The translations under genes and the position numbers were made by a program. The notes beneath the pieces are model-generated. The model saw nothing but the letters and a program-made list of their open reading frames with translations, did no database searches and was not told the origin of the DNA. DNA of 64,000 nt from positions 160,001 to 224,000 of the forward strand of contig CAVYJM010000006.1 of the NCBI GenBank assembly GCA_963768855.1, read 5' to 3'. Below, one piece after another: positions 1 through 14,255 of the stretch (positions are counted from its first letter, which is position 1; every line of letters starts with the position of its first letter). The stretch comes from an uncultured Thermoplasmata archaeon (GTDB lineage: Archaea > Thermoplasmatota > Thermoplasmata > RBG-16-68-12).

Positions 1-49
1 TTAACTATCTGGTCGGTTTCAGCGGATTCGCCCTACGGAGGAAGAAGAG

Positions 50-508
50 ATGGCAGAACCCGAACCGGGAAGCTTTGTGCACATCGAGTTCGCATCGACG
101 GATCCGCGGCGGACCCGCAAGTTCTTCGAGGACGTGTTCGGCTGGGAGTTCCAGTCCATGCCCGGGATGGAGTACCATGTGTACGCGACGCCTCGGGGTC
201 CCGGGGGCGCCGTGATGGGCCCGACCGAGGAACGGCCCTCGGGTGTGCTCAACTATCTCCTGTCCCGCGACATCGAGGCCGACGTGAGGCGGATTGAAGC
301 GGCGGGTGGCCGGATCCTCGTGCCGAAGAAGGAGGTCCCCGGCGTGGGATGGTGGGCGTTGTTCGAGGAGCCTACGGGGATCGTCCTCGCGCTATTCCAG
401 AGCCTGTCCCCGGATCGAGGTCCGGAGGCTCGTTATCGCGGCGGCTCCGCGCGACGAAGGGGTCCCGCGGGGAGCGGCAAGCCGAGCAGAAGACGCCCGG
501 GCTTATAG
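50..508 (+). CDS. VOC (glyoxalase/bleomycin-resistance) family protein with basic C-terminal tail
   Basis: FVHIEF..TDP.RTRKFFEDVFGW, NYLL..DIEA..RRIEAAGGRIL.PK.EVPGVGWWALFEEPTG is typical of VOC; GGAGG RBS upstream. Confidence 0.9.
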   Translation: MAEPEPGSFVHIEFASTDPRRTRKFFEDVFGWEFQSMPGMEYHVYATPRGPGGAVMGPTEERPSGVLNYLLSRDIEADVRRIEAAGGRILVPKKEVPGVGWWALFEEPTGIVLALFQSLSPDRGPEARYRGGSARRRGPAGSGKPSRRRPGL

Positions 509-537
509 CCCTCCGTTTCTTTAGGCGCTCCTCAGCC

Positions 538-1176
538 ATGAGCTCGCGAGCGGGGTCCGTCGCCGGACTGGGGAAGCAGCGCGTCGAGTCGCTCACGGAC
601 GGCATTTTTGGCACCGTGATGACGATCCTGGGACTCAGCCTCATCGTCCCCTACGTGACCGCCCCCGCAGACCAGCCTCTCCCCTCCCTCGGCGACATCC
701 TCCCTGGCGTGCTCATCTACGCGCTCAGCTTCGTGATCATGGGCGTGTTCTGGGTCGGCCACCATGTCGTCTTCCACTACATCCGCCGCACGGATCGCAC
801 GCTGATCTGGCTGAACAACGCGTTCCTCCTTTTCGTCGGCCTGCTTCCGCTCACGACCGCGCTCCTGGGCCGGCACGACCTCGTGCAGGCGGCGCTCGTC
901 GCCTACGGCCTCAATCTGATCGCGGTCCAGGCCGCGCTGTACGCGACGTTCTGGTATGCCACGGTCCACCACCATCTCGTCGACCTCGACTTGGGGCCGG
1001 AGATCATCCGGTCCGGCCGCCGTCGGATCCTCCTCGGGCCCTGCGTCTCCTCGATCGCGATCCTGCTCACGTTCGTCGACCCTTACCTGAGCCTGGGGAT
1101 CTTCGTCCTCTTCCCGGTCGTGTTCATCCTCCCCGGCCGGATCGACGTTTTCTTCCGGCGGCAGGAGCACCCATAG
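538..1176 (+). CDS. TMEM175/DUF1211 family membrane protein (putative K+ channel)
   Basis: RVESLTDGIFGTVMT, YALSF..MG.FW..HH, WLN..FL.FV.LLP.TT motifs; about 6 TM helices; ATG at 538 chosen over the longer ORF call. Confidence 0.85.
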   Translation: MSSRAGSVAGLGKQRVESLTDGIFGTVMTILGLSLIVPYVTAPADQPLPSLGDILPGVLIYALSFVIMGVFWVGHHVVFHYIRRTDRTLIWLNNAFLLFVGLLPLTTALLGRHDLVQAALVAYGLNLIAVQAALYATFWYATVHHHLVDLDLGPEIIRSGRRRILLGPCVSSIAILLTFVDPYLSLGIFVLFPVVFILPGRIDVFFRRQEHP

Positions 1177-1192
1177 CGGGAGGAGGGCCAGG

Positions 1193-1615
1193 ATGCCTTC
1201 GGCCTCGACGATCGCGTGTTTCTTCGACGGTGCCTGCAAGGGAAACCAGTTTGCGTCGAAGGGACCGATGTGGGTCGCGTACGTCATCGGGAAGGAGGAG
1301 CACGTCCACGAGATCCCGGACCTCCCGATGCCGCAGGGCACGCTCCGGAGCAACAACATCGCGGAATATGCCGCGCTCATCCGCCTCCTTCGCCGCGCGA
1401 GCGAGCTCGACGCCCGGCGTCCCGGGACCCGGTACCTGGTCCACGGTGACTCGCAGCTCGTCGTCTACCAGATGCAGGGGCGGTACCGGGTGCGGGAACC
1501 GCACCTCGTGCCGCTCCATGCGGAGGCGCGACGCCTCGCGGCGGGTCTGGCCGTCACCTTCCGCTGGGTCCCGCGCGACCAGAACCGGGCCGGGCACTTG
1601 CTCGAGGCCCTCTGA
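1193..1615 (+). CDS. Ribonuclease HI family protein (archaeal type)
   Basis: FFDGACKGN, SNNIAEYAALI, VHGDSQLVVYQMQGRYRV, WVPRDQN. Confidence 0.8.
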   Translation: MPSASTIACFFDGACKGNQFASKGPMWVAYVIGKEEHVHEIPDLPMPQGTLRSNNIAEYAALIRLLRRASELDARRPGTRYLVHGDSQLVVYQMQGRYRVREPHLVPLHAEARRLAAGLAVTFRWVPRDQNRAGHLLEAL

Positions 1616-1765
1616 TCAGATCGGCGACGCGCCGAGCGTGTAGCCTCCCGAGAGCGCCGCCTTGGGCGAATCCCGCAGGATCCAGTAGAGCCGCAGGCTC
1701 CCGCGACGCCGGGGCACGATCTTCGTGCCGTCCTGCTCGCGGATTGGGATGAATTCGAGCTTCAT
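1616..1765 (-). CDS. 49-aa microprotein A (MKLEFIPIREQDGTKIVPRRRGSLRLYWILRDSPK...)
   Basis: Not in the ORF track. ATG with GAGGAG upstream, fills the intergenic gap, ungapped similarity to the micro-ORF at 10920-11126. Confidence 0.6.
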   Translation of the reverse strand: MKLEFIPIREQDGTKIVPRRRGSLRLYWILRDSPKAALSGGYTLGASPI

Positions 1766-1817
1766 GGAGATCCTCTCCTCGGGGAATGGAAAAAAGGATG
1801 CGGATGGGGTCGTGAGG

Positions 1818-2192
1818 TCACAGGGACTTCACGAGGCCCCATGCCGCGCCCACGAGGACGACGAGGCCCGTCAGGAATCCCGCCGCCCCGCCCGCCAGGA
1901 TGAGCAGGGCCAACCCCGCGACCCCGGCGACGAGGACGCCGTTCCGCATGCTCTTGCGCGAGACCCCGTACGCCACGAAGCCCAGCAGCCCGAAGACGAC
2001 CAGATAGATCGCTCCGAGCGGCACGACCGCGGCCGAGGACTCGGTCAGGGCCCGCACCACGTAGGTCACGATGCCCGCGAGCACCGCGATGGCACTCCCC
2101 AGGACGATGGGGACCTGGTAGGTCTCCATGTGCTCGAGGGCGCGCCACGAGCGGTTCACGCGATCGGACACGTTGCTTGTTTCGGTTGCCAT
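1818..2192 (-). CDS. Small 4-TM membrane protein, unknown function
   Basis: Hydrophobic ORF; GAGGTGA RBS before ATG at 2192. Confidence 0.75.
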   Translation of the reverse strand: MATETSNVSDRVNRSWRALEHMETYQVPIVLGSAIAVLAGIVTYVVRALTESSAAVVPLGAIYLVVFGLLGFVAYGVSRKSMRNGVLVAGVAGLALLILAGGAAGFLTGLVVLVGAAWGLVKSL

Positions 2193-2225
2193 GAGTGCGT
2201 TCACCTCGGCTCCCCCTCTTCCAGC

Positions 2226-2280
2226 ACCCTACTTAACCGTGATTGGACGTCCGTCGAACCGCGTATGAAGGTGTTGTCGT
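2226..2280 (-). promoter_or_regulatory. Conserved 55-bp promoter/operator element, copy 1
   Basis: 42/55 ungapped identity to 11156-11210; TTAAGTA TATA-like box on the minus strand; GTTCGACGGAC imperfect palindrome. Confidence 0.7.
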
Positions 2281-2413
2281 GGTCCCGACGACCCGATTCC
2301 GAGCCACGCGTCCGACCCCGGGAAGGGCCTCCGGCACTTTCGCCGTCCTCCCCCGGGACAAGGGGGAAATACCCCGGCCGCGCATGCGGGGTCCCCCTGG
2401 TGGGGGAGGAAGG

Positions 2414-2875
2414 ATGACCACGGCCATCGACAAGCCCGGCAGTTTCGTGCATATCGAGATTGCATCGACCGATCCGGAGAGGACCCGGAAGTTCTTCGAG
2501 GACGTCTTCGACTGGGAGTTCAACGCGATTCCAGAGATGAACTACACGACGTACGAGGCGCCGAGTGGGCCCGGCGGCGGACTCATGACCCCGATGGAGA
2601 ACCAGCAGCCCGGGATCTTGAACTACCTGTTGTCTCACGACCTCGACGCGGATGTCAAGAAGATCGAACAGGCGGGCGGCCGGATCCTCATGCCCAAGAC
2701 GGAAATCCCTGGCATGGGGTGGTGGATCGTCTTCCAGGAGCCCACGGGCCTCGTCCTCGCCCTGTATCAGGGGCGCCAGCAGGCACGCCCTCCTCCCCGT
2801 CGCCCGGCCCGGAAGCCCGCGAGCCGCGCGCGCAAGTCCGCAGGCCGGTCGAAGGGACGGGGCCGCAAGAAGTAA
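2414..2875 (+). CDS. VOC family protein, paralog of 50-508, with Arg/Lys-rich tail
   Basis: PGSFVHIEIASTDPERTRKFFEDVF is nearly identical to the first copy; GGAGGAAGG RBS. Confidence 0.9.
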   Translation: MTTAIDKPGSFVHIEIASTDPERTRKFFEDVFDWEFNAIPEMNYTTYEAPSGPGGGLMTPMENQQPGILNYLLSHDLDADVKKIEQAGGRILMPKTEIPGMGWWIVFQEPTGLVLALYQGRQQARPPPRRPARKPASRARKSAGRSKGRGRKK

Positions 2876-3008
2876 GCCCGTCCCCCACGCGGGGCGAAAC
2901 AGAACAATCCTAGCAAGGGACAATGCCCCCCTCCCCCGATTACCCCGCCGGAGGTGGGTAGTTGTACGTCCCCACGATCTCGACCGCCGGTGTCCCGAAG
3001 CCGCCGAA

Positions 3009-5677
3009 CTAGCGACGGCTGCGCTGCGTAGGCGCCGAGCGCAGAATCTGGAGATCGGACTCGATCTTCGAAAGCAGCTCGCGATTTCCGACTCGGCCCG
3101 CAATCTCGCGGGCCTCCAGGAGATAGGATTGACTTTCTCCCCTCTTGTCCTGTTCGGAGTAGAAGCCCGCGACCTCGCGGAGGACGAGGGCCAGGTCCGC
3201 GGGGCTTCCATGGACCCTCAGATCCGCGATCCCTTCCTGCCACGCATGGGTGGCTCTTGACCAGTGCCCCAGGCGCAGCTCCAGTTCTCCCTCGTACGTC
3301 TTCAGGAAACCCAAGGTGTCCTTCTCCTCGAGGATCTCAAAGTAGTCCATCGCGAGGCGGAGCGTTACACCCGCTTCCTCGTAGCGGTGCAGTTGGAGCA
3401 GCGCATTCGTCTGGTTCATCGTGGCATAGGCCATGAGTCGGAGATTCCCCAGCAACCGAGCGGTCTCGAATCCGTCCGCATAGTGTCGGAGGCTTTCGGC
3501 ACCCCTTCCCGCTCCCGTGAGGGTCGCCCCCACGACGATGTGCGCGTGGGCCACCTCCGTGAGGTTGCCGGAACGTTCCGCCACGCGTAGCCCTTCAAGA
3601 TTGGACTCGAGTCCTTGATCCACGTGCCCCCGCTGTAACTGAAGGCTGCCGAGCGCGAGCAGCGTGCGCGACAGAGCGGCGCGATCCGACGATTCCGTGG
3701 CCAAGTCCACGGCCTCGCTCAGGTGACGGGCCGCCTGATCGATGTTTCCGAGGGCCTGTTCGGCCAAGGCCATCTCCCGTAGGACCTCCGTCATCTCGGC
3801 GGAGTTGTTCATCTCGAGCAGTCGGGCGCGGGACTCCACCAGATACCCGAGCGCCTTGGGATACGCGTTCCGGCATCGTTCCAGGAAAGCCATCTTCCGG
3901 AGGAGCCTCGGGACTCGTTCGAACCGGCGCGCGCTCTCCGAGAGCTTTCGGGCGTGCCCGTACTGGAACAGGGCGGGGCCCACATGACCGCGGACACGGA
4001 GGCTGTCTCCCAAGACCTCGGCAAAGACGCAATACGTGCCCGCCTGGGTTTCGTCAAGAGTGAGTCCGTGAACCAGGGAGGCGATGTCTTCCGCGGCGAC
4101 ACAGTCCAGGAGAGGACTGCCCTCTGAGTCGAGGAGCATGGCGGCCTCGGCGGACTGGCCCGCTTCGAGCAAGTGGTAGACGCCCTCCCAGCGCTCGCGG
4201 GAGTCGGCCGCCCGCAAGAGGCGTTCCGCTGCCCGGGCGTGGAGAGCCCGCCGCCTCGCGCCGGGAACTTGGGCTGTCACGAACCCCCTCACCAGGTCGT
4301 GCATCAGGTATCCGCCCGCAATGGTCCTCTCGAGCAGATTGCGCTCGGTGAGGCTCTCCAATGCGGGATGGTCTGTCTCGGCGACCTCCTCGAGGATGTG
4401 TTCGCTCACCGGTCGCCGGAAAACGGACGCGGCCTGCAGGACGGATCGGTCGGTGTCCGAGAGGGAGCCCCACACCTCTTCCTCAAGGTACCGTTGCACC
4501 GCCGCACCCCGCCCGGTCCCCGTGGACGCGGCGAGGTGGAGAAGAAGAGGGTGCCCCCGCGTGGTCCGGACGATCTCCTGTGCGGTACTGGAATCCGGCC
4601 CTAGCCCACGGCTCCGAAGGAGAGCCATCGAGGCCCCGGGGTCGAGACCGCGCAGGTGAAGGATCTCAGGCTCTCGCGCTCCTTCGGTCGACGCGTCCAG
4701 CCACCGCGGGAGCCGGCGCCCGAGCAGGACCACTTTGACTCGGAGATCTCGACTCATGCGGAGGAATAGGCCGCTGATGAGTTTGGTGACGTCCCGCGAC
4801 GCCTGATCCACATTGTCGAGGACCACCAAAGTCCGCCCGTCGGCCAAGTCGCGCTCCAAGAGGCGGGAGACGAAGGCCAGGTCGAGGGGAACGCCCTGTG
4901 CGAGATGTGCGGCCAGTCCGGGTTTCCCCTGGGCGGCTAGGAAGCCCCCGAAGTCCGCAAGGAGCCCCGCGGCCGTGGACGAGGGACGCGTCTCGAACCC
5001 GTACACAGGGACCCGCACTTGACGTCCCTGGATCCAAGCCGCCACGAGCGCGCTCTTCCCGATCCCCGCGAGGCCGGTGACGAACAGGACGGGCGAATCG
5101 GACGTCCACCAGGCGTCGAGGGTCTTCAGCTCCCCCGTCCTCCCGATGAACCGATCCACGCGCCGCAATCCGCTGCCCCACACGACGGGTCCACGATTCC
5201 GGGCGGCAGCGGCGGTGCGCGTGAGGTCCAGGCGGCCCTTCCGTACGGACGACAGGGCGCCGGTGAGGTCGATCCGGGTCGACGCGAGGGTTCGGCACTT
5301 CGACGACGCGCACGGTGAGCGATCCGACGTTCGGAGCGCGGACTGTGACCACCTGGGAACCGAGTCTCTCGCGCAGGGCCACGGCAGCCTTCCACCCCGT
5401 CTCGCTCAGGTGGTATTCGTACTTCGGCAGTGAATGACCGGCGAGGCGGATCCGGTCCCGGGTGACGAGCCCATTCGCGCTCGAGCCGGTCCAGCCACTT
5501 CGTGAGCGTGCTCCGGCCGGAGCGGGTCGCGGTCGCGATCCCGTCCTGCGTCTGCTCTTCCGGCCGCAAGGCCTCGGAGGAGAGGTGGACCAGGACGCGG
5601 TCCGACGTCACGAACGTGCGCTTCCGGACGTACTGGCGGACCAGGGAGAAGCCTCGCGGAGGGTATGCGCGGGGCAA
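3009..5677 (-). pseudogene. wHTH-STAND NTPase-TPR protein interrupted by two +1 frameshifts (about 5478 and 5290); pseudogene or assembly error
   Basis: Three frames join into one protein: wHTH (TQDGIATATRSGRSTLTKWLDRLE/GLVTRDR..Y.LSETG), Walker A GLAGIGKS, Walker B VVLDN, GHPL motif, TPRs; colinear with 6939-9737. Confidence 0.75.
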
Positions 5678-5741
5678 AATAGAACATTTCGGCCTCTGGT
5701 TTTAAGTCTATCCTCGTCTCTGAGCGTCGTCCGCAAAGCCT

Positions 5742-6128
5742 ATGGCATCCCCCCAGGCCAACGGCGAGCGAGCGTGGAACGCCTCGCCGTGGCTGCCCTT
5801 CGTGTACGCGGAAGTCATCCGCAGTCCGGAGACCTTCGGAGTCGTGATTCTCGGCGACAAGGACCGCGACCCCCTCCTCGTCACGCACGGCGTGATCCGC
5901 GACGAGATGTGGAAGTTCCATCACAGCCCGCGCTCCGCGGCGAGCGGCGCGCTCTTCTTCCGCTACGTCGAGACGGCCCTGGAGGGGGAGGCGGAACGCC
6001 TCGCCCACATCGTCCAGGAGGAGCTGGCGAAGCTCGCGGACCACCCGATCCTATGGGGGGACTTTCCCCCGCTGGCCCCGTCGGGTGCGCTGGAAGCCGT
6101 CGCGGTCAAGAGGTCCCCGACTTCCTGA
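5742..6128 (+). CDS. Hypothetical protein, 128 aa
   Basis: Protein-like composition, TTTAAG box about 40 nt upstream, no recognised motif. Confidence 0.55.
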   Translation: MASPQANGERAWNASPWLPFVYAEVIRSPETFGVVILGDKDRDPLLVTHGVIRDEMWKFHHSPRSAASGALFFRYVETALEGEAERLAHIVQEELAKLADHPILWGDFPPLAPSGALEAVAVKRSPTS

Positions 6129-6209
6129 TCGGACGGCCAAACGGATCCGGGGGACGCCGGCCTCGACCTCGGCCGTATGGCGTCCCTCGGCTGGAGATCC
6201 GACTCCGGA

Positions 6210-6338
6210 TCAGACGAAGCGGACGAGGTAGGCCGCCTTGATGAGGAGGGCCGCCTTGATCGCGAGCGCCGCCTTCACGGCGAGCGCGGCGCAAGCGAAC
6301 GAGGCCAGGACCCAGGGAACTGCGAACGTGGTCTTCAC
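6210..6338 (-). CDS. 42-aa hydrophobic/cationic repeat peptide (MKTTFAVPWVLASFACAALAVKAALAIKAALLIKAAYLVRFV)
   Basis: Not in the ORF track. GTG start overlaps the TGA of the upstream ORF (GTGA); three 18-nt repeats. Confidence 0.5.
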   Translation of the reverse strand: MKTTFAVPWVLASFACAALAVKAALAIKAALLIKAAYLVRFV

Positions 6339-6553
6339 CTCCCTTCGAATTCGGGATTGAGCCCCCTGTCGGCCGCTCCGGCGGAGGATCGGAGGACCCC
6401 GCGCAGGAGCTGTGCGGTTCGGGAGAGGACGGAGCCGCCTTGCGAGCCGTCCTCCCGGGTTCGTTGCTTCCGCGGCGGCCAGCCGGCGTAGCCGTCCAGG
6501 TCGTCCCGTCGGAACGTCCGGACGCCCGCGGCTCCCATCGCCGCGAACGCCAT
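6335..6553 (-). CDS. 72-aa hypothetical protein (MAFAAMGAAG...)
   Basis: TGATG coupling upstream and GTGA coupling downstream; composition is unconvincing on its own. Confidence 0.35.
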   Translation of the reverse strand: MAFAAMGAAGVRTFRRDDLDGYAGWPPRKQRTREDGSQGGSVLSRTAQLLRGVLRSSAGAADRGLNPEFEGR

Positions 6554-6804
6554 CACGCGCCTCCGGGTGCGGTGAGGGCCGCGGAGAGGGCCTCCGAGAT
6601 CTTGGTCAGAGCCCGGACGACCGTCCCGACCTTCCCTCCGTTCATCCGCGCGCGGCCCGCCCGGCGCGCGCGCAGGATCGCGGCAGTCACGGCCGCGCCG
6701 TCTCCGGCGTACTCGGCGCTCACCCACGCCCGCAGGTCCGCGGGGATCTGGGGGGCGTCCGTTCGCATCCGGCTCACAAGACTCGCTTGGGTTACGGGCA
6801 GCAT
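6553..6804 (-). CDS. 83-aa hypothetical protein (MLPVTQASLVSRM...)
   Basis: GGAGG six nt before ATG at 6804; helical-looking sequence. Confidence 0.5.
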   Translation of the reverse strand: MLPVTQASLVSRMRTDAPQIPADLRAWVSAEYAGDGAAVTAAILRARRAGRARMNGGKVGTVVRALTKISEALSAALTAPGGA

Positions 6805-6854
6805 TTTTTGCCTCCAGAGACGGTCCACGACCCGGAGGGTCAAGAGGGAAGCGC

Positions 6855-6875
6855 AGGAGTCCCGAGGGGACTCCT
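6855..6875. promoter_or_regulatory. Perfect 9-bp inverted repeat AGGAGTCCC-GAG-GGGACTCCT
   Basis: Lies between the divergent starts at 6804 (minus) and about 6939 (plus). Confidence 0.45.
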
Positions 6876-6938
6876 ATGCCGAGGCGGGAAAACGTACTTA
6901 GGGCCACATTCCGTTGACCCGAGGTTGCGAGGGAGCTT

Positions 6939-9737
6939 ATCGCGGTCCGCCTCACGGCCAAGGAACGCGTCCTTCTCCACCTCTTGGACTACGTGAGGTT
7001 CCGCGAGGGGCTCGAGGTCCCCCCGGAGATGACCCAGGAGGGCGTCGCCGCCGCCGCATGGGTCGAGCTGCGCCACGTGAGTCAGTACCTCCGCCCGCTC
7101 CTCGCGGACGAGCTCGTCCGGGAACGCACGTGCCATGTGAAAGGGGTCCGCCAGCGGCGCAAGGTGTACGACCTCACGGAGGCGGGGCAGCACGCCGCGT
7201 TTCGGTTGCGAGACCGCGTGAAGGCGGAGACCGTCCGGGTCCAGGATGGAGGCGGCGTGCACGAGGAGACCGTCGGGGTCGTGCTCGAGTCCCTCCGGGA
7301 CCGAGTCCCCCTCCTCGAGCTCGCGCGGCGTTCGATGAGGGATGGGAAGATCGACCTCGAGGCCCTGCGCGCCGGACCCCCGTCGCCCTTCGTCGAGATG
7401 ATCGCGGAAGCCCCGCGGCTGGACCGGTTCGTCGGCCGAAAGGCGGAGCTCGGGGCGATCCTGGCGGACGACGCGGGCCCGAAGATCTTCGTCGTCCGGG
7501 GGGTGGCGGGTATCGGCAAGTCCAGCATCGCGGCCAAGGCCTGCGAGATGCTCCACGGCAAGCGCAACCTGTTCTGGCACACCCTGCGCGCCTGGGACAC
7601 CCGGATTTCCGTCCTTTCGGCCCTGGGCGCCTTCCTCGCGTCCGTGGGCCGGCCCGGCCTCCGGGCCGTCCTGTCCCGCGGGGACGTTGGCCAGGCCGCG
7701 GACGTCCTCCGCGACGATCTGCCCGGGACCGCGGCGTTCCTCGTGTTCGACGATGCCCACGAGGCCGGAGGCGACGTGCTCGCCCTCTTCCGGTTCCTGA
7801 AGGACGCGTTGGCCGGGACCCCGGATGCGCGGGCCCTCATCCTCACGCGGCGTGCGTTGGCCTTCTACGACCGGCGCGACGTGTCGCTCACGGGGATCGT
7901 GCGGGAGATCGACCTGGCCGGCCTGACGACCGAGGACATCGCGACGTTCCTCTCTCCGGATCTGGACGTCGCGGTGGGGAACCTGGGGCGGAGGCTCGGG
8001 GGGCACCCCCTGTTCCTCCAGCTCGTGCAGTCGTCTCCTCATGCGCCGGTCCATGAGGGCGCGCTGCGGAACATGCGCCGGTTCCTGGAAGAGGAGGTCT
8101 ACGTGGACCTCTCGGAGCCCGAGAGGAAGGCCCTGAAGACCGCGGCCCTCTACCGCGTGCCGGTCCCGTGGCAAGCGTTGCATTGTGACCCGTCGGTCAC
8201 CCACGACGTCATCCTCGCGCTGAGCAACCGATCCCTCCTTCGTTTCGTCGGGCCCGATGCCATCGAGGTACACGACACGATCCGGAGCTTCTTCGCGGAG
8301 ATCCTCACGCCCACGGAGGCGGACACCCTGGGGATTTTCGCGGCGACGGAGCTCGGCGTCCTTGCCTCGCAGGCCCACGCCTCGGGGGATCTTGTCGGGT
8401 GCATCGCGTATCTCTCGAACGCGCTGCGGCTGCCGGTCAAAGACGAGTCTCGCGCCGCGTTGTTCGAGGCGCTGGGCGACGCGAACGAGCGGATCGGGGA
8501 CTTCCCCGCCACGTTGACGGCCTACAAGGAGGCCATGCGGGTCACCGACACGCCGGACGTCCACGCCCGTCTTCATCGGAAGACCGCGGCGGCCCTCGAG
8601 GCGCGAGGGGAGGTCAAGGCGGCGACGCGGGAGCTTGAGGCGACCCGGCGCATCCTCGGAGACAACGTGACGGTCGAGCGGGGGTGGGTCGATCTCATCC
8701 AGAGCCGCGCGGCGAGTCGGATCGAGGATCCGGAGAAGGCACGCGAGGCTGCCCAATCCGCCTTGGATGTCTTTGAGACCTTCGGAGAGACCGCGGCCGT
8801 CGTGCGCACCCTGTACGAGCTCGGGTACATTGAGATGGAGTCCCACCCCGGAGATCTCCGCGCCGCGGAGCGATACTTCCAGAAAGCTCTCACGTTGGCT
8901 CAGGGGTTGGGCGATCGAGCCCTCATCGCCAAGGTCCACACGGCTCTCGCGAACCTCTACGCGGGCCGCCTCGGCGACGTCGATCAGGGGTTGACGCACA
9001 TCGCCGCGGTTGAGGCGGATTCGGAGGCCCTTCAGGACCTGCAGGTGCGGAGGTCGTTCCGCATGCTCCAAGGCTGGTTCCAGCTCGACATCCGGGCGGA
9101 CTTCCCCGCGGCGGAGCGTGCCTTCGCGGAAGCCGCGGACCTCGCGCGGAAGCTCCACTTCGCTCCCTCGCTGGCGTTCACCCAGTCCGCCTTCGCACTG
9201 AGCCATTACTACCAGGGGAAGGTCGCCGACGCGCGCCGCGAATTCGAGGAATACGGGAGGGAGATTCTCGCCCAGGGGTTCCCCGCCTACGCGGTCGAGG
9301 CGTTCCTCCTGGTGGCGGAGTGCGATCTCCGCCTCGGGGACCTCGCCGGCTTCCATCAGGTGTCGGAGGAGATTGGACGGCCCGAGCTCGCAGAGGGCCG
9401 CAGGGCCCGCCCCGTTCGCGTGAAGGTCCTCCAGGCGATTCGTTGTCTACTGGAAGACGATCTGGAAGGAGCGCGGAACGCCTTCGATGCGGCGCTGCGG
9501 CTCGCCGGATCCGGCGACATGATCGAGGAAGCGCTCCTCCTCCACACGGTCCACTTCTACTGCGGCCTGGCCCTTCGCGTGTGCGGTAAACGGGAGGAGG
9601 GAGAGCAGCATCTTCGCGAGTCCCGGGAGTTCCTGGAGCGGTATCACCTCAAGGCCCGCCTCTCGATTCTGCCCGAGGCGGAGCGCGAGCTGGCTGAGAC
9701 CCTCGCTCGCGGGATCCGGTCCGTCGGCCACGTCTAG
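6939..9737 (+). CDS. wHTH-STAND NTPase-TPR protein (MalT/AP-ATPase-like regulator)
   Basis: N-terminal wHTH (LTAKERVLLHL..TQEGVA..VSQYL..L.DELV..YDLTEAG), RFVGR.AEL, Walker A GVAGIGKS, Walker B LVFDD, GGHPL, TPRs. Start uncertain (ATC 6939 or TTG 6984). Confidence 0.85.
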   Translation: MAVRLTAKERVLLHLLDYVRFREGLEVPPEMTQEGVAAAAWVELRHVSQYLRPLLADELVRERTCHVKGVRQRRKVYDLTEAGQHAAFRLRDRVKAETVRVQDGGGVHEETVGVVLESLRDRVPLLELARRSMRDGKIDLEALRAGPPSPFVEMIAEAPRLDRFVGRKAELGAILADDAGPKIFVVRGVAGIGKSSIAAKACEMLHGKRNLFWHTLRAWDTRISVLSALGAFLASVGRPGLRAVLSRGDVGQAADVLRDDLPGTAAFLVFDDAHEAGGDVLALFRFLKDALAGTPDARALILTRRALAFYDRRDVSLTGIVREIDLAGLTTEDIATFLSPDLDVAVGNLGRRLGGHPLFLQLVQSSPHAPVHEGALRNMRRFLEEEVYVDLSEPERKALKTAALYRVPVPWQALHCDPSVTHDVILALSNRSLLRFVGPDAIEVHDTIRSFFAEILTPTEADTLGIFAATELGVLASQAHASGDLVGCIAYLSNALRLPVKDESRAALFEALGDANERIGDFPATLTAYKEAMRVTDTPDVHARLHRKTAAALEARGEVKAATRELEATRRILGDNVTVERGWVDLIQSRAASRIEDPEKAREAAQSALDVFETFGETAAVVRTLYELGYIEMESHPGDLRAAERYFQKALTLAQGLGDRALIAKVHTALANLYAGRLGDVDQGLTHIAAVEADSEALQDLQVRRSFRMLQGWFQLDIRADFPAAERAFAEAADLARKLHFAPSLAFTQSAFALSHYYQGKVADARREFEEYGREILAQGFPAYAVEAFLLVAECDLRLGDLAGFHQVSEEIGRPELAEGRRARPVRVKVLQAIRCLLEDDLEGARNAFDAALRLAGSGDMIEEALLLHTVHFYCGLALRVCGKREEGEQHLRESREFLERYHLKARLSILPEAERELAETLARGIRSVGHV

Positions 9738-9937
9738 TCGTCGGGTGGTGCTTCCGCAGGAGGCAGATCCTGCGCAACCAGCGCGGCATCCTCCGCGAGC
9801 CGTTGCTGCCAGTAGTAGATCGCTGCCAGCTTCCGTTCCGTGGAGGGTTTCTTCTCGTCCAGTTTGGCCGTGATTCCCGCATAGGCCGTCTTGATGTTCG
9901 TCCACCCTGTTGGCACCGGGACCTTGCTCTTGACCAC
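9734..9937 (-). CDS. Hypothetical protein, about 67 aa
   Basis: GGAGG before GTG at 9937; MVKSKVPVPTGWTNIKTAYAG. Confidence 0.5.
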   Translation of the reverse strand: MVKSKVPVPTGWTNIKTAYAGITAKLDEKKPSTERKLAAIYYWQQRLAEDAALVAQDLPPAEAPPDD

Positions 9938-10042
9938 GTTCCTCCCCCGACCCGCATCCGAGGGGGACGCTAAAGGGATTACGGCCCCTCGCTCCTGCGC
10001 AATCTGCGGATTCACCGCCCGTGGAGGGTCCGGAAGGCCGTG

Positions 10043-10810
10043 TCACTCGTCCATCGGCGCACCGTGAATCGGGATGATTGCGCCCTTCACGAAGCGCGCC
10101 TCCTCCGTGCAGAGCCAAGCGACGAGTTCCGCGATGTCCTGGGGGGTGCCGTGCTTCCGGTTCGTCCAGGTCGGTCCACGACGCAGCGCGTCGAGCGCCT
10201 GCTGGAACGTGAAGGTCGGGATGTAGCCCGGAGCCACAGCGTTGATCGTGACGCCATGCGGCATCTCCACCTCGGAGAGGATGCGCGTCAGCCCGTGTCG
10301 CGCGATCTTGCCGACCGTGTAGTCGTAGGGCGGTTCCATGAACTCCTCCGAACGTTCCATGCCGAGGTTCACGATGCGTCCCCATCTGCGGCGCCGCATG
10401 TCGGGGAGCGCGGCCTTGATCGTGTGGAACATGCCGTCAATCTCCGCACGCAGGACGGCCTGCCAAAAGTCATCGGCGACCTTGGTGAGATCCGGTCGTG
10501 GATCCCAGCGCCCGCCCGCGTTGTTGACGAGGATGTCCACCGGGCCGAGCTCCCGTTTCGCTTCCGCGAACAGGTCCCGCACGGCCCGGCCGTCCTGGGT
10601 GCTCGCCTCGAGCAGGATCGCGCGCACGCCGAGCGACTCGACGGCTTTCAGGAGCCGCTGGTTGCCCGCCTCCCGGGTCCGGCGGTTCGTGCCTGTGTTC
10701 AGCACGATGTCGGCGCCCTCCCGCGCGAGCGTCAGGGCCGTGCTCCGGCCCATGCCGTTCCCGGTGCTCCCTGTGACGAGGGCGACGCGGCCCTGCAGCG
10801 GCGCGGTCAT
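10043..10810 (-). CDS. SDR family oxidoreductase
   Basis: VALVTGSTGNGMG, DILVNNAGG, Y.VGK, INAVAPG. Confidence 0.9.
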   Translation of the reverse strand: MTAPLQGRVALVTGSTGNGMGRSTALTLAREGADIVLNTGTNRRTREAGNQRLLKAVESLGVRAILLEASTQDGRAVRDLFAEAKRELGPVDILVNNAGGRWDPRPDLTKVADDFWQAVLRAEIDGMFHTIKAALPDMRRRRWGRIVNLGMERSEEFMEPPYDYTVGKIARHGLTRILSEVEMPHGVTINAVAPGYIPTFTFQQALDALRRGPTWTNRKHGTPQDIAELVAWLCTEEARFVKGAIIPIHGAPMDE

Positions 10811-10876
10811 GCCGCCGCGAACGGCAGACGCCGCCATGTACCCTGCGGTCGCCCGGGGGGCCCGCTCTCGCCGGAC

Positions 10877-10895
10877 CGCCTCCGCATCGGAGGCG
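10877..10895 (-). terminator. 8-bp hairpin CGCCTCCG-CAT-CGGAGGCG downstream of microprotein B
   Basis: Perfect inverted repeat about 25 nt after the stop; no U-tract. Confidence 0.3.
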
Positions 10896-10919
10896 TGGGT
10901 GTCCGTCGCAAGTAGCGGC

Positions 10920-11126
10920 TCAGGCGGACAGCCGCAGGGTCTTGGTCGGAGAACGGCGGACCGCTTGCCAGGGTGCCGGGAGAGGGGAGGGCTTGCGTGT
11001 CGAGGGCCCAGGCTTCCCGTCCGCGCGGGGTTCCTTCACGATCAGGAAGACCCGCACGGTCTCGGGGTGGAGGGGGAGGAGTTCCGAGGCCCCCGATTCC
11101 GACACCGTGACGAACTGTAGCTTCAC
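10920..11126 (-). CDS. 68-aa microprotein B (MKLQFVTVSESGASELLPLHPETVRVFLIVKEP...)
   Basis: GTG start with GAGG RBS; paralog of 1616-1765; directly downstream of promoter copy 2. Confidence 0.6.
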   Translation of the reverse strand: MKLQFVTVSESGASELLPLHPETVRVFLIVKEPRADGKPGPSTRKPSPLPAPWQAVRRSPTKTLRLSA

Positions 11127-11155
11127 GGTCCGCCTCGGTCTCCCCCTTGGTCCCG

Positions 11156-11210
11156 ACCCTACTAAACCGTTCTTGCACGTCCATCGAACGCTACTTGAAT
11201 CTGTTGTCGT
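11156..11210 (-). promoter_or_regulatory. Conserved 55-bp promoter/operator element, copy 2
   Basis: 42/55 identity to 2226-2280; TTTAGTA TATA-like box; GTTCGATGGAC core. Confidence 0.7.
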
Positions 11211-11318
11211 TCGTCCGGGGACAAGCCGCTCCCGTGGCGGCCGTCGAGACGGATGCCCGGACCGGGCGTCCGCGGCACGCACGGGGAAAGCTTATTCCGC
11301 CTCTCCGATACCCGGCCG

Positions 11319-12083
11319 ATGGCTCGTTTCGAGGGTCAGGTCGTCCTGGTGACGGGCGGCTCCTCGGGCATCGGCTATGCGACCGCGAAAGCGTTCCTCG
11401 AGGAGGGCGCGAAGGTCGCGATCACCGGGCGGAACGTGGTCCGACTCCAGCGGGCGGAGAAGGAGCTCGGCCGCTTCGGCACGGTCCTCGCGATCCGCGG
11501 GGACGTGTCGAGGGCCGCGGACGCGAAACGCATGGTGTCGGAGACCGCGAAGAAGCTGGGCCCGCTCGATGTCCTCGTGAACAACGCGGGCATCTACCTC
11601 AACAAGCCGGTCGAGGCGTTCTCGGAACGCGAGTACGACGCGGTCATGGACATCAACATGAAGGGCGCGTTCCTCTGCACGAAGTTCGCGGTCCCCGGGA
11701 TGGTCAAGCGGAAGCGCGGCGCGATCGTGAACGTGGCCTCGGATAGCGGCCTGGTCGGCACCGCGGGCTCGTCCGTGTACTGCGCGTCGAAGGGCGCGAT
11801 GGTCCTGTTCACGAAGGCGGTCGCCCTCGACCATGCGAAGGACAACCTCCGCGTGAACGTGGTCTGCCCGGGCGAGGTCAAGACCCCGATGATGGAGAAG
11901 GACGCCGCGGAATCGGGCCGCGGCTTCGACGAGTACTACCAGCGGGTCGTCGCTCCCATCCCGATGAAGCGCGCGGCCACGGCGGAGGAGATCGCCCGCT
12001 CGATCCTGTTCCTGGCGAGCGACGAGGCCTCGTTCATGACGGGGGCCGCGCTCTCCGTGGACGGCGGTTCGACCGCGCTCTAG
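11319..12083 (+). CDS. SDR family oxidoreductase
   Basis: TGGSSGIG, NNAGI, YCASK, VNVVCPG, VDGG. Confidence 0.93.
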   Translation: MARFEGQVVLVTGGSSGIGYATAKAFLEEGAKVAITGRNVVRLQRAEKELGRFGTVLAIRGDVSRAADAKRMVSETAKKLGPLDVLVNNAGIYLNKPVEAFSEREYDAVMDINMKGAFLCTKFAVPGMVKRKRGAIVNVASDSGLVGTAGSSVYCASKGAMVLFTKAVALDHAKDNLRVNVVCPGEVKTPMMEKDAAESGRGFDEYYQRVVAPIPMKRAATAEEIARSILFLASDEASFMTGAALSVDGGSTAL

Positions 12084-12673
12084 CGGTCGGGGTCCGAGGT
12101 CGGGGCCTCCTGGGCGATCCGCCGCCGGATTGTGAATCCCGCGATGCACAGGAGGACGCCGACGATCAAGGCGGGGATGCCCAGGTACGGGTTCGCGAAC
12201 GCGAAGAAGATCGATGAGAAGCCCGCCAGGAAGATGCCGATCTGAAGGAGCCGCTCGCGTGGGCTCGCCCGGAGCACGTCGCTCTCGATTTCCTTCCAGA
12301 ACCGGAGGAGGAGCGCGATGAGGATGATGACGACCGCCGCGGCGACGAAGAAGTCGAACGTCAGCGTGGAATAGTAGTCGCCGAAGGTGAGGAACAGGCC
12401 GACCTCGTCCCCGACGAAGCCCGCGCCGAGACCGAAGACGACCGCGTAGATGCGGTTGTACCGCACGTCGTTCTCCGCGATGCCGAGCCACCCGGCGATT
12501 CCCATCATCGCGAGCCCGTACCAGAAGTGGTGGAAGTGGATCCCCTGGGCGACGATGACGATGTCCGGGAAGACGGTGTGGAAGATTCTCGCGCCGAAGA
12601 AGCCCGCGGTGAAGGCGAGCGTGGCGAGGAACGACAGTCCGTGTTTGTGCTGCGGAGGCTGCGGCGATGCCAT
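12080..12673 (-). CDS. Integral membrane protein with HFHHFWYG and GAGFVGDE motifs
   Basis: About 6 TM helices; GAGGGAG RBS before ATG at 12673. Confidence 0.75.
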   Translation of the reverse strand: MASPQPPQHKHGLSFLATLAFTAGFFGARIFHTVFPDIVIVAQGIHFHHFWYGLAMMGIAGWLGIAENDVRYNRIYAVVFGLGAGFVGDEVGLFLTFGDYYSTLTFDFFVAAAVVIILIALLLRFWKEIESDVLRASPRERLLQIGIFLAGFSSIFFAFANPYLGIPALIVGVLLCIAGFTIRRRIAQEAPTSDPDR

Positions 12674-12756
12674 CGCATTCTCCCTCATGTGCAAGAATGA
12701 GATAAGGGTGGCGCGGGCCGGACGGCGTGTGGCGCCCCGGGGTCGCAGGGCGTCCC

Positions 12757-13098
12757 TCAGAGGACCGTGGCCACCCAGGACAGGACGCCGCCCGCGATGA
12801 CGAGCATCGCGTCGAGGCCGAAGCCCAGGATGAACAGGATGACTCCTGCGGCGGTCGTCAGGAAGCCCGCGAAGGAGAGGCGGGCCCGCGGGAACAGGAG
12901 CGCCCGGCCGCCCCGGTAGATCCACCACGCGCCCAGCAGGGCGCCGAGGCCGAGGAGGATGCCGAACAGCCCGACGAGGGCCCCTGCGCCGATGGAGCCC
13001 ACGAGGACCAGCACGCCGCCGAGGAACGCCAGAAGCGCCGCGACGGTGCTGATCATCCGGCGGACGAGCCGAGCCCGGAAGAAGCCCCTGCCGAACAT
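12757..13098 (-). CDS. Small 4-TM membrane protein, unknown function
   Basis: Gly/Leu/Ala-rich hydrophobic helices; start uncertain. Confidence 0.7.
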   Translation of the reverse strand: MFGRGFFRARLVRRMISTVAALLAFLGGVLVLVGSIGAGALVGLFGILLGLGALLGAWWIYRGGRALLFPRARLSFAGFLTTAAGVILFILGFGLDAMLVIAGGVLSWVATVL

Positions 13099-13219
13099 GA
13101 TGTTTTCCGGTGCGGGATTCCTTATCCCCTTTGCCCTTTGCAGGTGTCCCTCTCCGTACACTCGTGGCCGGTTCTTGCACGGCGGTGCGCAGTCGCGCGG
13201 GCCGCGGCGCGGGATTCAC

Positions 13220-14173: not shown

Positions 14174-14255
14174 CGCAACCCCGGCCCGGGCAGGGCCGAC
14201 CCTCTACATAACCCCGAGGCGGACAGGTTATCTGCGGTCCCCGCGATGCCCGGTC

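What the first reader, a model, noticed from the sequence alone, without database searches (positions are those of the whole stretch)
1..13100. Candidate STAND-controlled microprotein module occupying the first 13 kb
Seen: two divergent wHTH-STAND-TPR genes in the middle, a coupled chain of micro-ORFs between them, and on the flanks two copies of one promoter element, each upstream of a paralogous micro-ORF, plus duplicated VOC genes and small membrane proteins. Established: MalT-clade STAND proteins are ligand-activated DNA-binding regulators, and archaeal activators bind just upstream of BRE/TATA. Inference: the STANDs may sense a ligand through their TPRs and activate the duplicated promoter, giving an undescribed stress or defence regulon. 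Nothing in the sequence proves this link.
Basis: partly seen in the sequence, partly recalled or inferred. Interest (0 to 1): 0.7.

Follow-up and report, generated by a model that had tools for sequence, protein, structure and literature searches.

The report
STAND regulators with private microprotein operons
The first 13 kb is not one regulon but several independent units side by side; the interesting one is an archaeal STAND-type sensor-regulator gene that stays paired, across many related genomes, with a back-to-back operon of tiny fast-evolving proteins, a candidate target or ligand for a regulator family with no known function.

Summary
Two divergent wHTH-NTPase-TPR (PH0952-type STAND) genes enclose a coupled minus-strand chain of 83, 72 and 42 codons. 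A ~90-nt promoter-like element occurs twice, and the VOC genes are duplicated.

Corrections:
- STAND1 carries two +1 frameshifts, which split off its wHTH.
- Element copy 1 lies directly before a 124-aa membrane gene (mem128). The microprotein s49 is the second gene.

- The element is the promoter of mem128(-s49) units throughout the genus, usually far from any STAND.
- One relative has both STAND cassettes but no element.
- Another has both element copies but lacks STAND2-orfABC at the syntenic site.
- No copy lies in the STAND control regions.

What holds is narrower. In 15 loci from two genera, through rearrangements, STAND2-type genes sit about 180 nt back-to-back with an orfA-family microgene. 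A small hydrophobic peptide gene often follows orfA. The shared control region is better conserved than the ORFs.

Local regulation of orfABC by STAND2 is inferred, not shown. The earlier scan notes cover this same stretch.

The parts
50..508 (+). VOC1, a glyoxalase/bleomycin-resistance fold protein with a basic C-terminal tail
   Evidence: Pfam Glyoxalase 31.4 bits. 65% amino-acid identity to VOC2.
538..1176 (+). TMEM175-family membrane protein
   Evidence: Pfam TMEM175 E 2e-22. Codon score.
1193..1615 (+). RNase H-like protein
   Evidence: Pfam RVT_3 36.4 bits.
1616..1765 (-). s49, a 49-aa microprotein; second gene of the mem128 unit and paralogue of s68
   Evidence: BLASTP to s68 E 9e-7. 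Homologues follow mem128 in at least 8 genomes. Third-position excess of substitutions: 9/7/17 and 14/7/24.
1818..2192 (-). mem128, a small multi-pass membrane protein with no Pfam family
   Evidence: Codon score 0.77 per codon. Homologues lie directly downstream of the element in 21 loci. Substitutions 31/23/45.
2197..2285 (-). Promoter-like element, copy 1: distal box, proximal box GTTCGACGGACGTCCAA, TATA-like TTAAGTA, SD GAGGTGA
   Evidence: R1 score 70.5 bits. TTAAGT-type hexamers are enriched 30-35 nt before starts genome-wide.
2414..2875 (+). VOC2; its own TATA-like box near 2365-2375 is conserved in G013, which lacks element copy 1
3009..5677 (-). STAND1 (wHTH-NOD-TPR), broken by two +1 frameshifts at about 5473-5477 and about 5290-5303
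   Evidence: tblastn of the intact G013 orthologue falls in three frames. Pfam AAA_16 35.3 bits and TPR/ANAPC5. MarR 25.4 bits in the orthologue's N-terminus.
5678..5741 (.). 64-nt control region shared by STAND1 and DUF7508, with one TTTTAAGT box
   Evidence: Sequence. Hexamer enrichment.
5742..6128 (+). DUF7508 small protein, back-to-back with STAND1
   Evidence: Pfam DUF7508 29.4 bits. Paired with a STAND1 orthologue in G013, G023, G005, G076, G009 and G014.
6210..6338 (-). orfC, a 42-aa hydrophobic peptide with 18-nt repeats that ends in RFV
   Evidence: Codon score 0.85 per codon. TRF period 18. 71% identical in G013. Analogous 25-32-aa peptides follow orfA in G003, G075, G068 and G076.
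6335..6553 (-). orfB, 72 aa, coupled to orfA and orfC
   Evidence: Same junctions in G009, G013 and G076, with a conserved C-terminal GL.PE..GR.
6553..6804 (-). orfA, an 83-aa microprotein and founder of a narrow family
   Evidence: SD GGAGG plus ATG. 75 representative clusters of 75-120 aa, nearly all aligned full length. 15 loci lie back-to-back with STAND2-type genes. Caveat: no third-position excess.
6805..6944 (.). Control region shared by orfA and STAND2: TATA-like CTAAGTA (6895-6901, minus strand), 9-bp palindrome/hairpin (6855-6875), anti-SD stretch TTGACCCTCC (about 6833-6842)
   Evidence: 76-85% identical to G013 and G009, more than the ORFs. 15-locus alignment. Consensus fold 91% paired versus 42-61% in slid controls. 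Fold z -2.97. Palindrome unique in the genome.
6945..9737 (+). STAND2 (wHTH-NOD-TPR, PH0952 type); the first canonical start is TTG 6984, but conserved coding begins at or before 6948
9734..9937 (-). s67, a microprotein convergent with STAND2 whose stop overlaps STAND2's stop
   Evidence: Found with STAND2 in G009, G013 and G005, and with both tandem STAND2 copies in G076. Substitutions 7/7/20.
10043..10810 (-). SDRa, a short-chain dehydrogenase
   Evidence: Pfam adh_short E 2.6e-34.
10920..11126 (-). s68, a 68-aa microprotein and paralogue of s49
   Evidence: Orthologues in G009, G013, G023 and G076.
11121..11214 (-). Promoter-like element, copy 2, directly before s68
   Evidence: R1 score 84.3 bits. 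81-89% conserved in G009, G076, G013 and G023.
11319..12083 (+). SDRb, a short-chain dehydrogenase with its own GCTTATT box about 30 nt before the ATG
   Evidence: Pfam E 1.7e-61. Sequences.
12080..12688 (-). mem202, a membrane protein
   Evidence: Codon score 0.77 per codon. Syntenic in G013, G009 and G076.
12757..13098 (-). mem113, a membrane protein unrelated to mem128

Best explanation
The stretch is a juxtaposition of independent conserved units, not one STAND-controlled regulon.

(A) STAND2 cassette. A PH0952-type signal-transducing ATPase (MarR/ArsR-like wHTH, NOD, TPR sensor) is transcribed back-to-back with a translationally coupled microprotein operon, orfA-orfB-orfC. They share a ~140-180-nt control region that holds one TATA-like box, a 9-bp palindrome/hairpin and an SD-sequestering stretch. 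A further microgene, s67, abuts the 3' end of STAND2.

Most likely (inferred), STAND2 acts locally. Its wHTH would bind the shared control region and set transcription of orfABC, and probably of itself, when its TPR sensor is triggered. The structured leader would add translational control of orfA. The microproteins would be the output or a feedback ligand.

(B) STAND1 cassette. This is a paralogue paired in the same way with a DUF7508 protein. In this genome it is disabled, or at least separated from its wHTH, by two +1 frameshifts.

(C) Repeated element. It is the promoter plus upstream operator of the genus-wide mem128(-s49) unit. The second copy drives s68, a clade-specific duplicate of s49. 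Its regulator is unknown, and nothing ties it to the STANDs.
For: SHOWN.
- Architecture of STAND2 and its closest relative PH0952.
- The orfA profile hits 47 of 79 genomes of the order. The 13 best loci, plus one from another genus and one more, all have a STAND2-type gene divergent about 180 nt away.
- The flanks of this pair differ between genomes: DUF7508, VOC, a roadblock-like gene or a GTPase-like gene. Pairing that survives rearrangement argues for function.
- The cassette behaves as a unit. It is absent between DUF7508 and SDRa in G023, and [STAND2+s67] is tandemly duplicated in G076.
- The control region is 85% and 76% identical to G009 and G013. orfA is 78% and 57% identical.
- Leader structure: 91% of cells paired versus 42-61% in slid controls. 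Six G-U wobble cells fit pairing only on the orfA-sense RNA.
- The STAND1-DUF7508 pairing recurs in 6 other genomes.
- STAND1 frameshifts.
- The element lies directly before mem128 homologues in 21 loci and before s68 in 5. Its TATA-like hexamer and spacing fit the genome-wide pattern. A third, degenerate copy precedes the mem128 paralogue at C6:1006260.

INFERRED. That STAND2 binds the shared region, and the direction of control.
Against: - No binding, transcript or protein data exist. No RNA run was available.
- orfA, orfB and orfC show no third-position excess of substitutions: 22/16/16, 18/24/21 and 9/7/6. STAND2 shows 117/92/342 in the same genome pair. The proteins are therefore barely constrained, or the constraint is not on the protein. 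Their coding status rests on GC3 periodicity, conserved start, stop and junctions, and a small invariant core (Y..EY).
- About half of the fuller-length STAND2 homologues examined have no recognisable orfA neighbour. In family f7 the weak orfA-like hits lie convergent, past the 3' end of the STAND.
- All genomes are kin within one order, so the loci are not independent.
- The STAND1 frameshifts could be assembly errors. Contigs laid on the site did not settle this.
Confidence: 0.6

Rival explanations
1. First reader's model. One or both STANDs sense a ligand and activate, in trans, the duplicated promoter before mem128-s49 and s68, which makes the 13 kb one stress or defence regulon.
For: In this genome the two element copies flank the STAND pair almost symmetrically: s49 and s68 each lie about 1.2 kb past a STAND 3' end. 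Linkage of the element with STAND1 is kept in G014, G009:C4 and G023. The conserved boxes abut the TATA box, where archaeal activators bind.
Against: - The element sits directly before mem128 in 21 loci, nearly all with no STAND in the fetched flanks, e.g. beside thiolase/HMG-CoA synthase genes in G019 and G073.
- 18 genomes have the element but no DUF7508 hit, the marker used for the STAND1 cassette.
- G023 has both copies without STAND2-orfABC at the syntenic site.
- G005 has both cassettes, but no element and no mem128 were found.
- The element shares nothing with either STAND control region.
- STAND1 is frameshifted here.
Confidence: 0.1
2. NLR-like defence or abortive response. STAND2 senses an invader protein through its TPRs and switches on orfC, a membrane-active cationic amphipathic peptide, as a suicide or growth-arrest effector. 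orfA and orfB would act as modulators or immunity factors.
For: - STAND NTPases with TPR sensors include antiphage Avs proteins (general knowledge).
- orfC is a 42-aa hydrophobic peptide with Lys every 6 residues. Small hydrophobic peptides follow orfA in six genomes.
- The microproteins evolve fast, with dN close to dS.
- The cassette is present, absent or duplicated among close relatives, and the family has 3-12 copies per genome.
Against: - PADLOC models give no hit for any component.
- The N-terminal domain is a DNA-binding wHTH, not a nuclease, protease or NADase effector.
- The surroundings are ordinary chromosome, with TBP and TFB 10-12 kb upstream and no integrase or tRNA.
- Toxicity of orfC is untested.
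Confidence: 0.13
3. Peptide or protein-ligand signalling. A product of the orfABC operon is the cognate ligand or anti-activator of the neighbouring TPR sensor. The models are RRNPP regulators with their adjacent propeptide genes, or MalT with its inhibitory proteins. The pair would then be a self-contained feedback or quorum-like circuit.
For: - TPR sensors commonly bind peptides or protein termini, and MalT is held inactive by partner proteins (PMC10427625 abstract).
- A regulator with a tiny adjacent gene, plus rapid evolution of the small gene, is the pattern expected of receptor-ligand pairs.
- The N-terminal half of orfC looks signal-peptide-like in G000.
Against: - The signal-peptide-like feature is not conserved in G013.
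- There is no export or processing gene nearby.
- The AF2 model of orfA has low confidence (pLDDT 60).
- No complex prediction or interaction data are available.
Confidence: 0.1
4. The central micro-ORFs are not genes. The region between DUF7508 and STAND2 would be a long conserved non-coding control region or RNA, whose open frames persist by chance in 68% G+C DNA.
For: - Substitutions are spread evenly over codon positions in orfA, orfB and orfC. Every calibrating gene shows a 2-4-fold third-position excess.
- An 83-codon open frame has roughly a 20% chance at this G+C content (own estimate).
- The leader is more conserved than the ORFs.
Against: - GC3 reaches 0.82-0.92 in exactly the three proposed frames. 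Codon-usage scores are 0.47-0.85 per codon, as for real genes.
- SD-ATG and both overlap junctions are conserved in G009, G013 and G076.
- Of the 75 representative proteins the profile finds, nearly all are about 75-120 aa and align end to end.
- A Y..EY core is near-invariant down to 22% identity.
Confidence: 0.07

Closest known systems
PH0952 of Pyrococcus horikoshii (PDB 6MFV), the PH0952 clade of STAND ATPases (Lisa et al. 2019, PMC6468293)
   Same: Same order of parts: an N-terminal ArsR/MarR-like wHTH effector, a NOD (NBD-HD-WHD) and a TPR sensor. The STAND2 NOD aligns to 6MFV with E 1.4e-17. Both are predicted archaeal transcription factors with no known inducer or target.
   Different: In this lineage the family is expanded to 3-12 copies per genome. 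One subfamily is hard-wired to a back-to-back microprotein operon, and another to a DUF7508 gene. No such partner is described for PH0952, and PH0952's own neighbourhood was not examined here.
MalT of Escherichia coli (MalT clade STAND activator)
   Same: A ligand-switched STAND with a TPR-like sensor that activates transcription after multimerising. It is held in check by partner proteins such as MalY and MalK. There are weak TPR_MalT and NCBIfam MalT hits.
   Different: MalT's DNA-binding domain is a C-terminal LuxR-type HTH. Here it is an N-terminal wHTH, and the matches are far below the family cut-offs (32 versus 45 bits; 22 versus 537 bits).
RRNPP peptide-sensing regulators (Rap, NprR, PlcR, PrgX) with adjacent propeptide genes
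   Same: An N-terminal HTH plus a C-terminal TPR sensor, encoded next to a very small, fast-evolving gene.
   Different: RRNPP proteins have no NTPase module and are bacterial (Firmicutes). No export or processing signal is established for orfA, orfB or orfC. The resemblance is recalled from general knowledge and was not tested.
Avs / bacterial NLR-like antiphage STANDs
   Same: A STAND NTPase with a TPR sensor, variable presence among close relatives, and a multi-copy family.
   Different: No PADLOC hit. The effector domain is a DNA-binding wHTH rather than a nuclease, protease or similar. The locus is not a defence-island context.

Membership tests
PH0952-clade STAND (wHTH-NOD-TPR) | P-loop NOD of the STAND class | tested here: met
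   STAND2 residues 164-468 align to 6MFV residues 8-298, E 1.4e-17. Pfam AAA_16 scores 35.3 bits for STAND1 (above cut-off) and 23.8 bits for STAND2 (below cut-off). The Walker A motifs GVAGIGKSS and GLAGIGKSA are visible.
PH0952-clade STAND (wHTH-NOD-TPR) | C-terminal TPR sensor | tested here: met
   STAND2: TPR_12 36.4 bits against a cut-off of 30.1. STAND1: ANAPC5 28.8 bits against 23, and TPR_12 26.9 bits, below cut-off.
PH0952-clade STAND (wHTH-NOD-TPR) | N-terminal winged-helix DNA-binding effector domain | tested here: met
   STAND2: AF2 model with pLDDT 85.6 and an H-H-H-wing topology. Top Foldseek hits are MarR-family regulators, AspA and Sso10a (prob 1.0, E about 1e-3). STAND1: MarR scores 25.4 bits against a cut-off of 24.6 in the intact G013 orthologue. 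In the window this domain is out of frame.
PH0952-clade STAND (wHTH-NOD-TPR) | Inducer-triggered ADP/ATP switch, multimerisation and transcription control | not testable with these tools
   Needs biochemistry. Not shown for PH0952 either, which is a 'putative transcription regulator'.
MalT proper (E. coli type) | C-terminal LuxR/GerE-type HTH and the equivalog-level score | tested here: not met
   No GerE/LuxR domain was found. NCBIfam MalT scores 22 bits against a cut-off of 537, and TPR_MalT scores 32 against 45.
Known antiphage STAND systems (Avs, bNACHT and others in PADLOC) | Match to a defence-system model, and an enzymatic or pore-forming effector domain fused to the STAND | tested here: not met
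   PADLOC gives only a sub-threshold generic TPR hit (E 0.005) and nothing for the small ORFs. The N-terminal domain is a wHTH.
Archaeal BRE/TATA promoter with an upstream regulator site (for the repeated element) | TATA-like box at the usual distance from the start, conserved sequence immediately upstream, and orientation towards a gene | tested here: met
   TTAAGTA or TTTAGTA lies 44-48 nt before the start codons, followed by an SD. TTAAGT and CTTAAG hexamers are enriched 4.5-4.7-fold, peaking 30-35 nt before starts, in 1549 genes of this genome. A mem128 or s68 gene follows in 26 loci. The transcription start itself is not testable here.
RRNPP-like peptide signalling | A secreted, processed propeptide encoded beside an HTH-TPR receptor | tested here: inconclusive
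   An HTH, a TPR sensor and an adjacent tiny gene are all present. An NTPase module intervenes, and the signal-peptide-like segment of orfC is not conserved in G013. Export cannot be tested.

The most novel reading that the evidence does not exclude
A subfamily of archaeal PH0952-type STAND regulators forms a self-contained circuit with a back-to-back operon of fast-evolving microproteins: orfA, plus a small hydrophobic peptide ending in RF[VIL]. The microproteins would serve as the regulator's cognate ligand or anti-activator, or as its membrane-active effector. Either way this would be an NLR-like peptide-signalling or abortive-response module in archaea, with an extra layer of control from a structured, SD-sequestering leader.
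Probability: 0.2. Interest if true: 0.75.

Novelty: new variant of a known kind. Interest (0 to 1): 0.45.

Why it matters
STAND ATPases with TPR sensors are understood in bacteria (MalT) and in immunity (NLRs, Avs). The archaeal wHTH-NOD-TPR clade, solved structurally as PH0952, has no known inducer, target or phenotype.

A partner operon that stays 180 nt away through rearrangements gives that clade a first concrete candidate target or ligand. It also provides a defined control region to test by EMSA, DAP-seq or reporter assays.

The work adds four unannotated microprotein families (orfA, orfC-type peptides, s49/s68, s67) and a genus-wide promoter/operator for a small membrane-protein unit.

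It also removes an attractive but unsupported 13-kb 'regulon'.

Tried and rejected
- I first read the repeat on the + strand, where short ORFs (LDVRRT... and LHVHRT...) lie inside it. I rejected them because their 'proteins' diverge completely beyond the repeat in G013.
- I suspected that the 840-900-aa DUF7508 hits in other families were DUF7508-STAND fusions. They are GltD-like oxidoreductases with a C-terminal DUF7508.
- Rfam at E<=1 over 1-14500 found nothing.
- PADLOC, NCBIfam and Pfam found nothing for any small ORF.
- The AF2 model of orfA reached only pLDDT 60, so no fold search was run.
- The search for related loci failed twice: the orfA alignment was too variable, and STAND2 as a single query found no relatives. 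The organism was therefore not named. It is archaeal by its TBP and TFB genes. 'Thermoplasmata' comes only from an earlier unchecked note.
- Sequencing runs: no RNA holder was listed. Contigs of four wetland or sediment runs laid on 1-14500 were too fragmentary to confirm or refute the STAND1 frameshifts. One related-strain contig shows -1/+1/-1 indels at 5295-5305.
- s94 (9447-9731, -) is the antisense shadow of the STAND2 3' end, not a gene.
- No transcription factor is consistently next to the mem128 units. The neighbours differ by clade: HTH_10-like, TrmB-like or DsbA-like.

Full report
CONTEXT

The window is G000:C6:160001-224000 of a 2.87-Mb, 24-contig, ~68% G+C assembly that is 93.6% complete with 7.7% contamination. 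TBP and TFB genes lie 10-12 kb upstream, so the organism is an archaeon. There is no tRNA or integrase nearby. Related DNA occurs in wetland and freshwater-sediment metagenomes.

At this G+C content spurious ORFs abound. I therefore called genes with a GC3 frame plot and a codon-usage log-odds model trained on 753 long ORFs of the genome. I then checked the calls by Pfam and by synteny.

GENE MAP OF 1-14,500

| Gene | Coordinates | Strand |
|---|---|---|
| VOC1 | 50-508 | + |
| TMEM175 | 538-1176 | + |
| RNase H-like | 1193-1615 | + |
| s49 | 1616-1765 | - |
| mem128 | 1818-2192 | - |
| VOC2 | 2414-2875 | + |
| STAND1 | 3009-5677 | - |
| DUF7508 | 5742-6128 | + |
| orfC | 6210-6338 | - |
| orfB | 6335-6553 | - |
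| orfA | 6553-6804 | - |
| STAND2 | ~6945-9737 | + |
| s67 | 9734-9937 | - |
| SDRa | 10043-10810 | - |
| s68 | 10920-11126 | - |
| SDRb | 11319-12083 | + |
| mem202 | 12080-12688 | - |
| mem113 | 12757-13098 | - |
| acetamidase-like | 13220-14164 | - |

THE TWO STANDS

The STAND2 NTPase core aligns to the solved archaeal STAND PH0952 (6MFV) with E 1.4e-17. [quoted passage not shown] It names no inducer or target.

An AlphaFold2 model of the first 165 residues of STAND2, built on 17 homologues, has pLDDT 85.6. It shows three helices, a beta-wing and a dimerisation-like helix. Its best Foldseek matches are MarR-family regulators, AspA and Sso10a. Pfam finds AAA_16 and TPR_12. No defence model matches, and MalT/AfsR models match only remotely. 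The family is present in all 41 genomes sampled in the order, at 1-12 matches per genome.

STAND1 is not intact. The 896-codon G013 orthologue aligns to the window in three frames: residues 4-75 at 5477-5692, residues 77-137 at 5290-5472, and residues 133-881 at 3057-5303. This implies two single-base insertions, one of them in a CCC run. The wHTH is therefore out of frame with the NTPase. Contigs from public runs did not settle whether this is real.

The universally conserved N-terminus of STAND2, RLTAKERVLLHLLDY, forms helix 1 of the wHTH. It lies upstream of the first ATG, GTG or TTG in its frame. At the aligned start position, at least five homologues have GTG (the rows read out). This genome has GTC.

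THE MICRO-ORF CHAIN

On the minus strand, orfA has GGAGG-N6-ATG. The orfB ATG shares one base with orfA's TGA. The orfC GTG overlaps orfB's TGA by four bases. The same ORFs and junctions are present in G013 (all three), G009 (orfC cut by the contig end) and G076.

A seven-sequence orfA profile, searched through all 79 genomes of the order, found 47 genomes with a hit. The 13 best loci all carry a STAND2-type gene divergent about 180 nt away. So do one locus from a second genus and one further locus. The outer flanks of the pair differ between genomes. G023 lacks the whole STAND2-orfABC-s67 block, so DUF7508 there abuts SDRa. G076 has [STAND2+s67] in tandem. In six genomes orfA(-orfB) is followed by a 25-42-aa hydrophobic peptide that ends in R-F/I/A-V/I/L/F.

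A 15-sequence orfA profile finds only 75 representative clusters among 1.84 billion proteins. Nearly all are 75-120 aa and align end to end. No Pfam, NCBIfam or PADLOC family matches.

Caveat on coding. Substitutions between G000 and G009 or G013 show no third-position excess in the chain:

| Gene | Differences at codon positions 1/2/3 |
|---|---|
| orfA | 22/16/16 and 35/32/40 |
| orfB | 18/24/21 |
| orfC | 9/7/6 |
| STAND2 | 117/92/342 |
| SDRa | 24/21/92 |
| DUF7508 | 22/20/54 |
| mem128 | 31/23/45 |
| s49 | 9/7/17 |
| s67 | 7/7/20 |

 The first 100 codons of STAND2 show the normal pattern, so local recombination does not explain the difference. Against a non-coding reading stand GC3 of 0.82-0.92 in the proposed frames, gene-like codon scores, conserved boundaries, and a Y..EY core retained down to 22% identity. 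I read these as real but very weakly constrained microproteins.

THE SHARED CONTROL REGION

The orfA-STAND2 spacer is 85% identical to G009 and 76% identical to G013. That is more than orfA itself, at 78% and 57%. All 15 loci keep a TATA-like CTAAGTA/CTAAGAA box. In the subgroup nearest this genome, the region continues with a 9-bp palindrome (AGGAGTCCC-N3-GGGACTCCT, 6855-6875), which is unique in the genome. After it comes TTGACCCTCC, complementary to the orfA SD region GGAGGCAA.

On nine sequences the two helices are 91% paired, against 42-61% when the partners are slid. Four pairs change on both sides. Six G-U cells pair only on the orfA-sense RNA. The single-sequence fold has z = -2.97.

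The second subgroup has different inverted repeats at the same places. Rfam has nothing here. Most genes of this genome have TATA-like hexamers 30-35 nt before the start codon, which means short or absent leaders. A ~90-nt structured leader is therefore unusual.

THE REPEATED ELEMENT

Read on the minus strand, both copies have the same layout: a distal box CGACAACAG.TTCAA, a proximal box GTTCGAYGGAYGTSCAA, TT(A/T)AGTA, about 18 nt, an SD CGAGG(T/C)G(A/G)AC, and then the start of mem128 or s68. The 34-nt core occurs only twice in the genome.

I built a sequence-only covariance model from 11 copies and searched the order. It finds the element in 31 of 37 genomes of the genus, usually once or twice each. 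In 21 loci it lies directly before a mem128 homologue, and in five before s68. An s49/s68-type micro-ORF follows mem128 in at least eight genomes. A third, degenerate copy precedes the mem128 paralogue at C6:1006260. The s68 arrangement is confined to G000, G009, G013, G023 and G076.

TEST OF THE PROPOSED LINK

- Among the ~3-kb loci fetched around the element hits, a STAND appears only in G000 and G014. G009:C4 and G023 keep the linkage.
- In G019 and G073 the unit sits beside thiolase/HMG-CoA synthase genes. Its neighbours vary by clade.
- Of 25 genus genomes with the element at E<1e-4, 18 have no DUF7508 hit, the marker used for the STAND1 cassette. Three have no orfA hit.
- G005, 94% complete, has both cassettes, but neither the element nor mem128 was found.
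- Scoring every position of 1-14500 with the model finds nothing in 5678-5741 or 6805-6944.

Trans-regulation by one of the many STAND paralogues cannot be excluded.

DUF7508

Stand-alone ~130-aa DUF7508 genes occur in eight genomes of the genus. Apart from this genome, six of them lie back-to-back with a STAND1 orthologue. G064 was not examined. In three other families the domain is the C-terminus of a GltD-like oxidoreductase, so it is not STAND-specific.

VERDICT

The 13-kb 'module' is not. What remains, and is new as far as these libraries show, is a PH0952-type regulator subfamily locked to a microprotein operon through a strongly conserved control region. The mechanism I propose is local, sensor-dependent control of orfABC by STAND2, with the microproteins as output or feedback. 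That mechanism is inferred from anatomy and conserved neighbourhood only.

The earlier notes of this scan describe the same features on this same stretch and are not independent evidence.

Noticed in passing
window 5290-5303 and 5473-5477 (minus strand): STAND1 is split over three reading frames by two single-base insertions relative to its intact G013 orthologue, which separates the wHTH from the NTPase-TPR body. It is either a pseudogene or an assembly error. A related-strain contig shows compensating indels at 5295-5305.
   Followed up: partly
window 6915-6984: The conserved, structurally required N-terminus of STAND2 (RLTAKERVLLHL) has no ATG, GTG or TTG upstream of it in frame. At the aligned start position, at least five homologues have GTG, others have CTG, ATT or GCG, and this genome has GTC. 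This suggests a non-canonical start.
   Followed up: partly
window 6805-6880 (minus strand): The orfA leader has a 9-bp hairpin and an anti-SD helix (TTGACCCTCC : GGAGGCAA). They are 91% paired across nine genomes with some covariation, and there is no Rfam family. It is a candidate cis-regulatory RNA in a genome where most genes have short or no leaders.
   Followed up: partly
L085-L089, L092, L095, L096 (families f2, f3, f4 of the order): In other families of the order, DUF7508 is the C-terminal domain of an ~840-900-aa GltD-like Fe-S/FAD oxidoreductase. In this genus it is a free-standing ~130-aa protein beside STAND1.
   Followed up: partly
L082 (G076:C81) 1091-7624: STAND2 is tandemly duplicated together with the convergent microgene s67, so each copy keeps its own s67. 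s67 shows a normal coding substitution pattern (7/7/20).
   Followed up: partly
window 2197-2414; L120, L123, L079: A VOC (glyoxalase-fold) gene is the divergent neighbour of the element-mem128 unit in G000, G014, G023 and G071. Both VOC paralogues here carry Arg/Lys-rich C-terminal tails. The element could also act on the VOC promoter.
   Followed up: no
G000:C6:1005956-1006346 (outside the window): A third, degenerate copy of the promoter element lies before a 36%-identical mem128 paralogue, with no s49-like ORF after it.
   Followed up: yes
window 6231-6287: orfC is built on about 2.5 copies of an 18-nt repeat, which gives a Lys-every-six amphipathic helix (KAALAI-type).
   Followed up: yes
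window 1616-2320 versus L015 6867-6972: The whole s49-mem128-element block (~700 nt) is missing between the RNase H-like gene and VOC in G013. It is present in G014 and G023, so it is an indel unit.
   Followed up: partly
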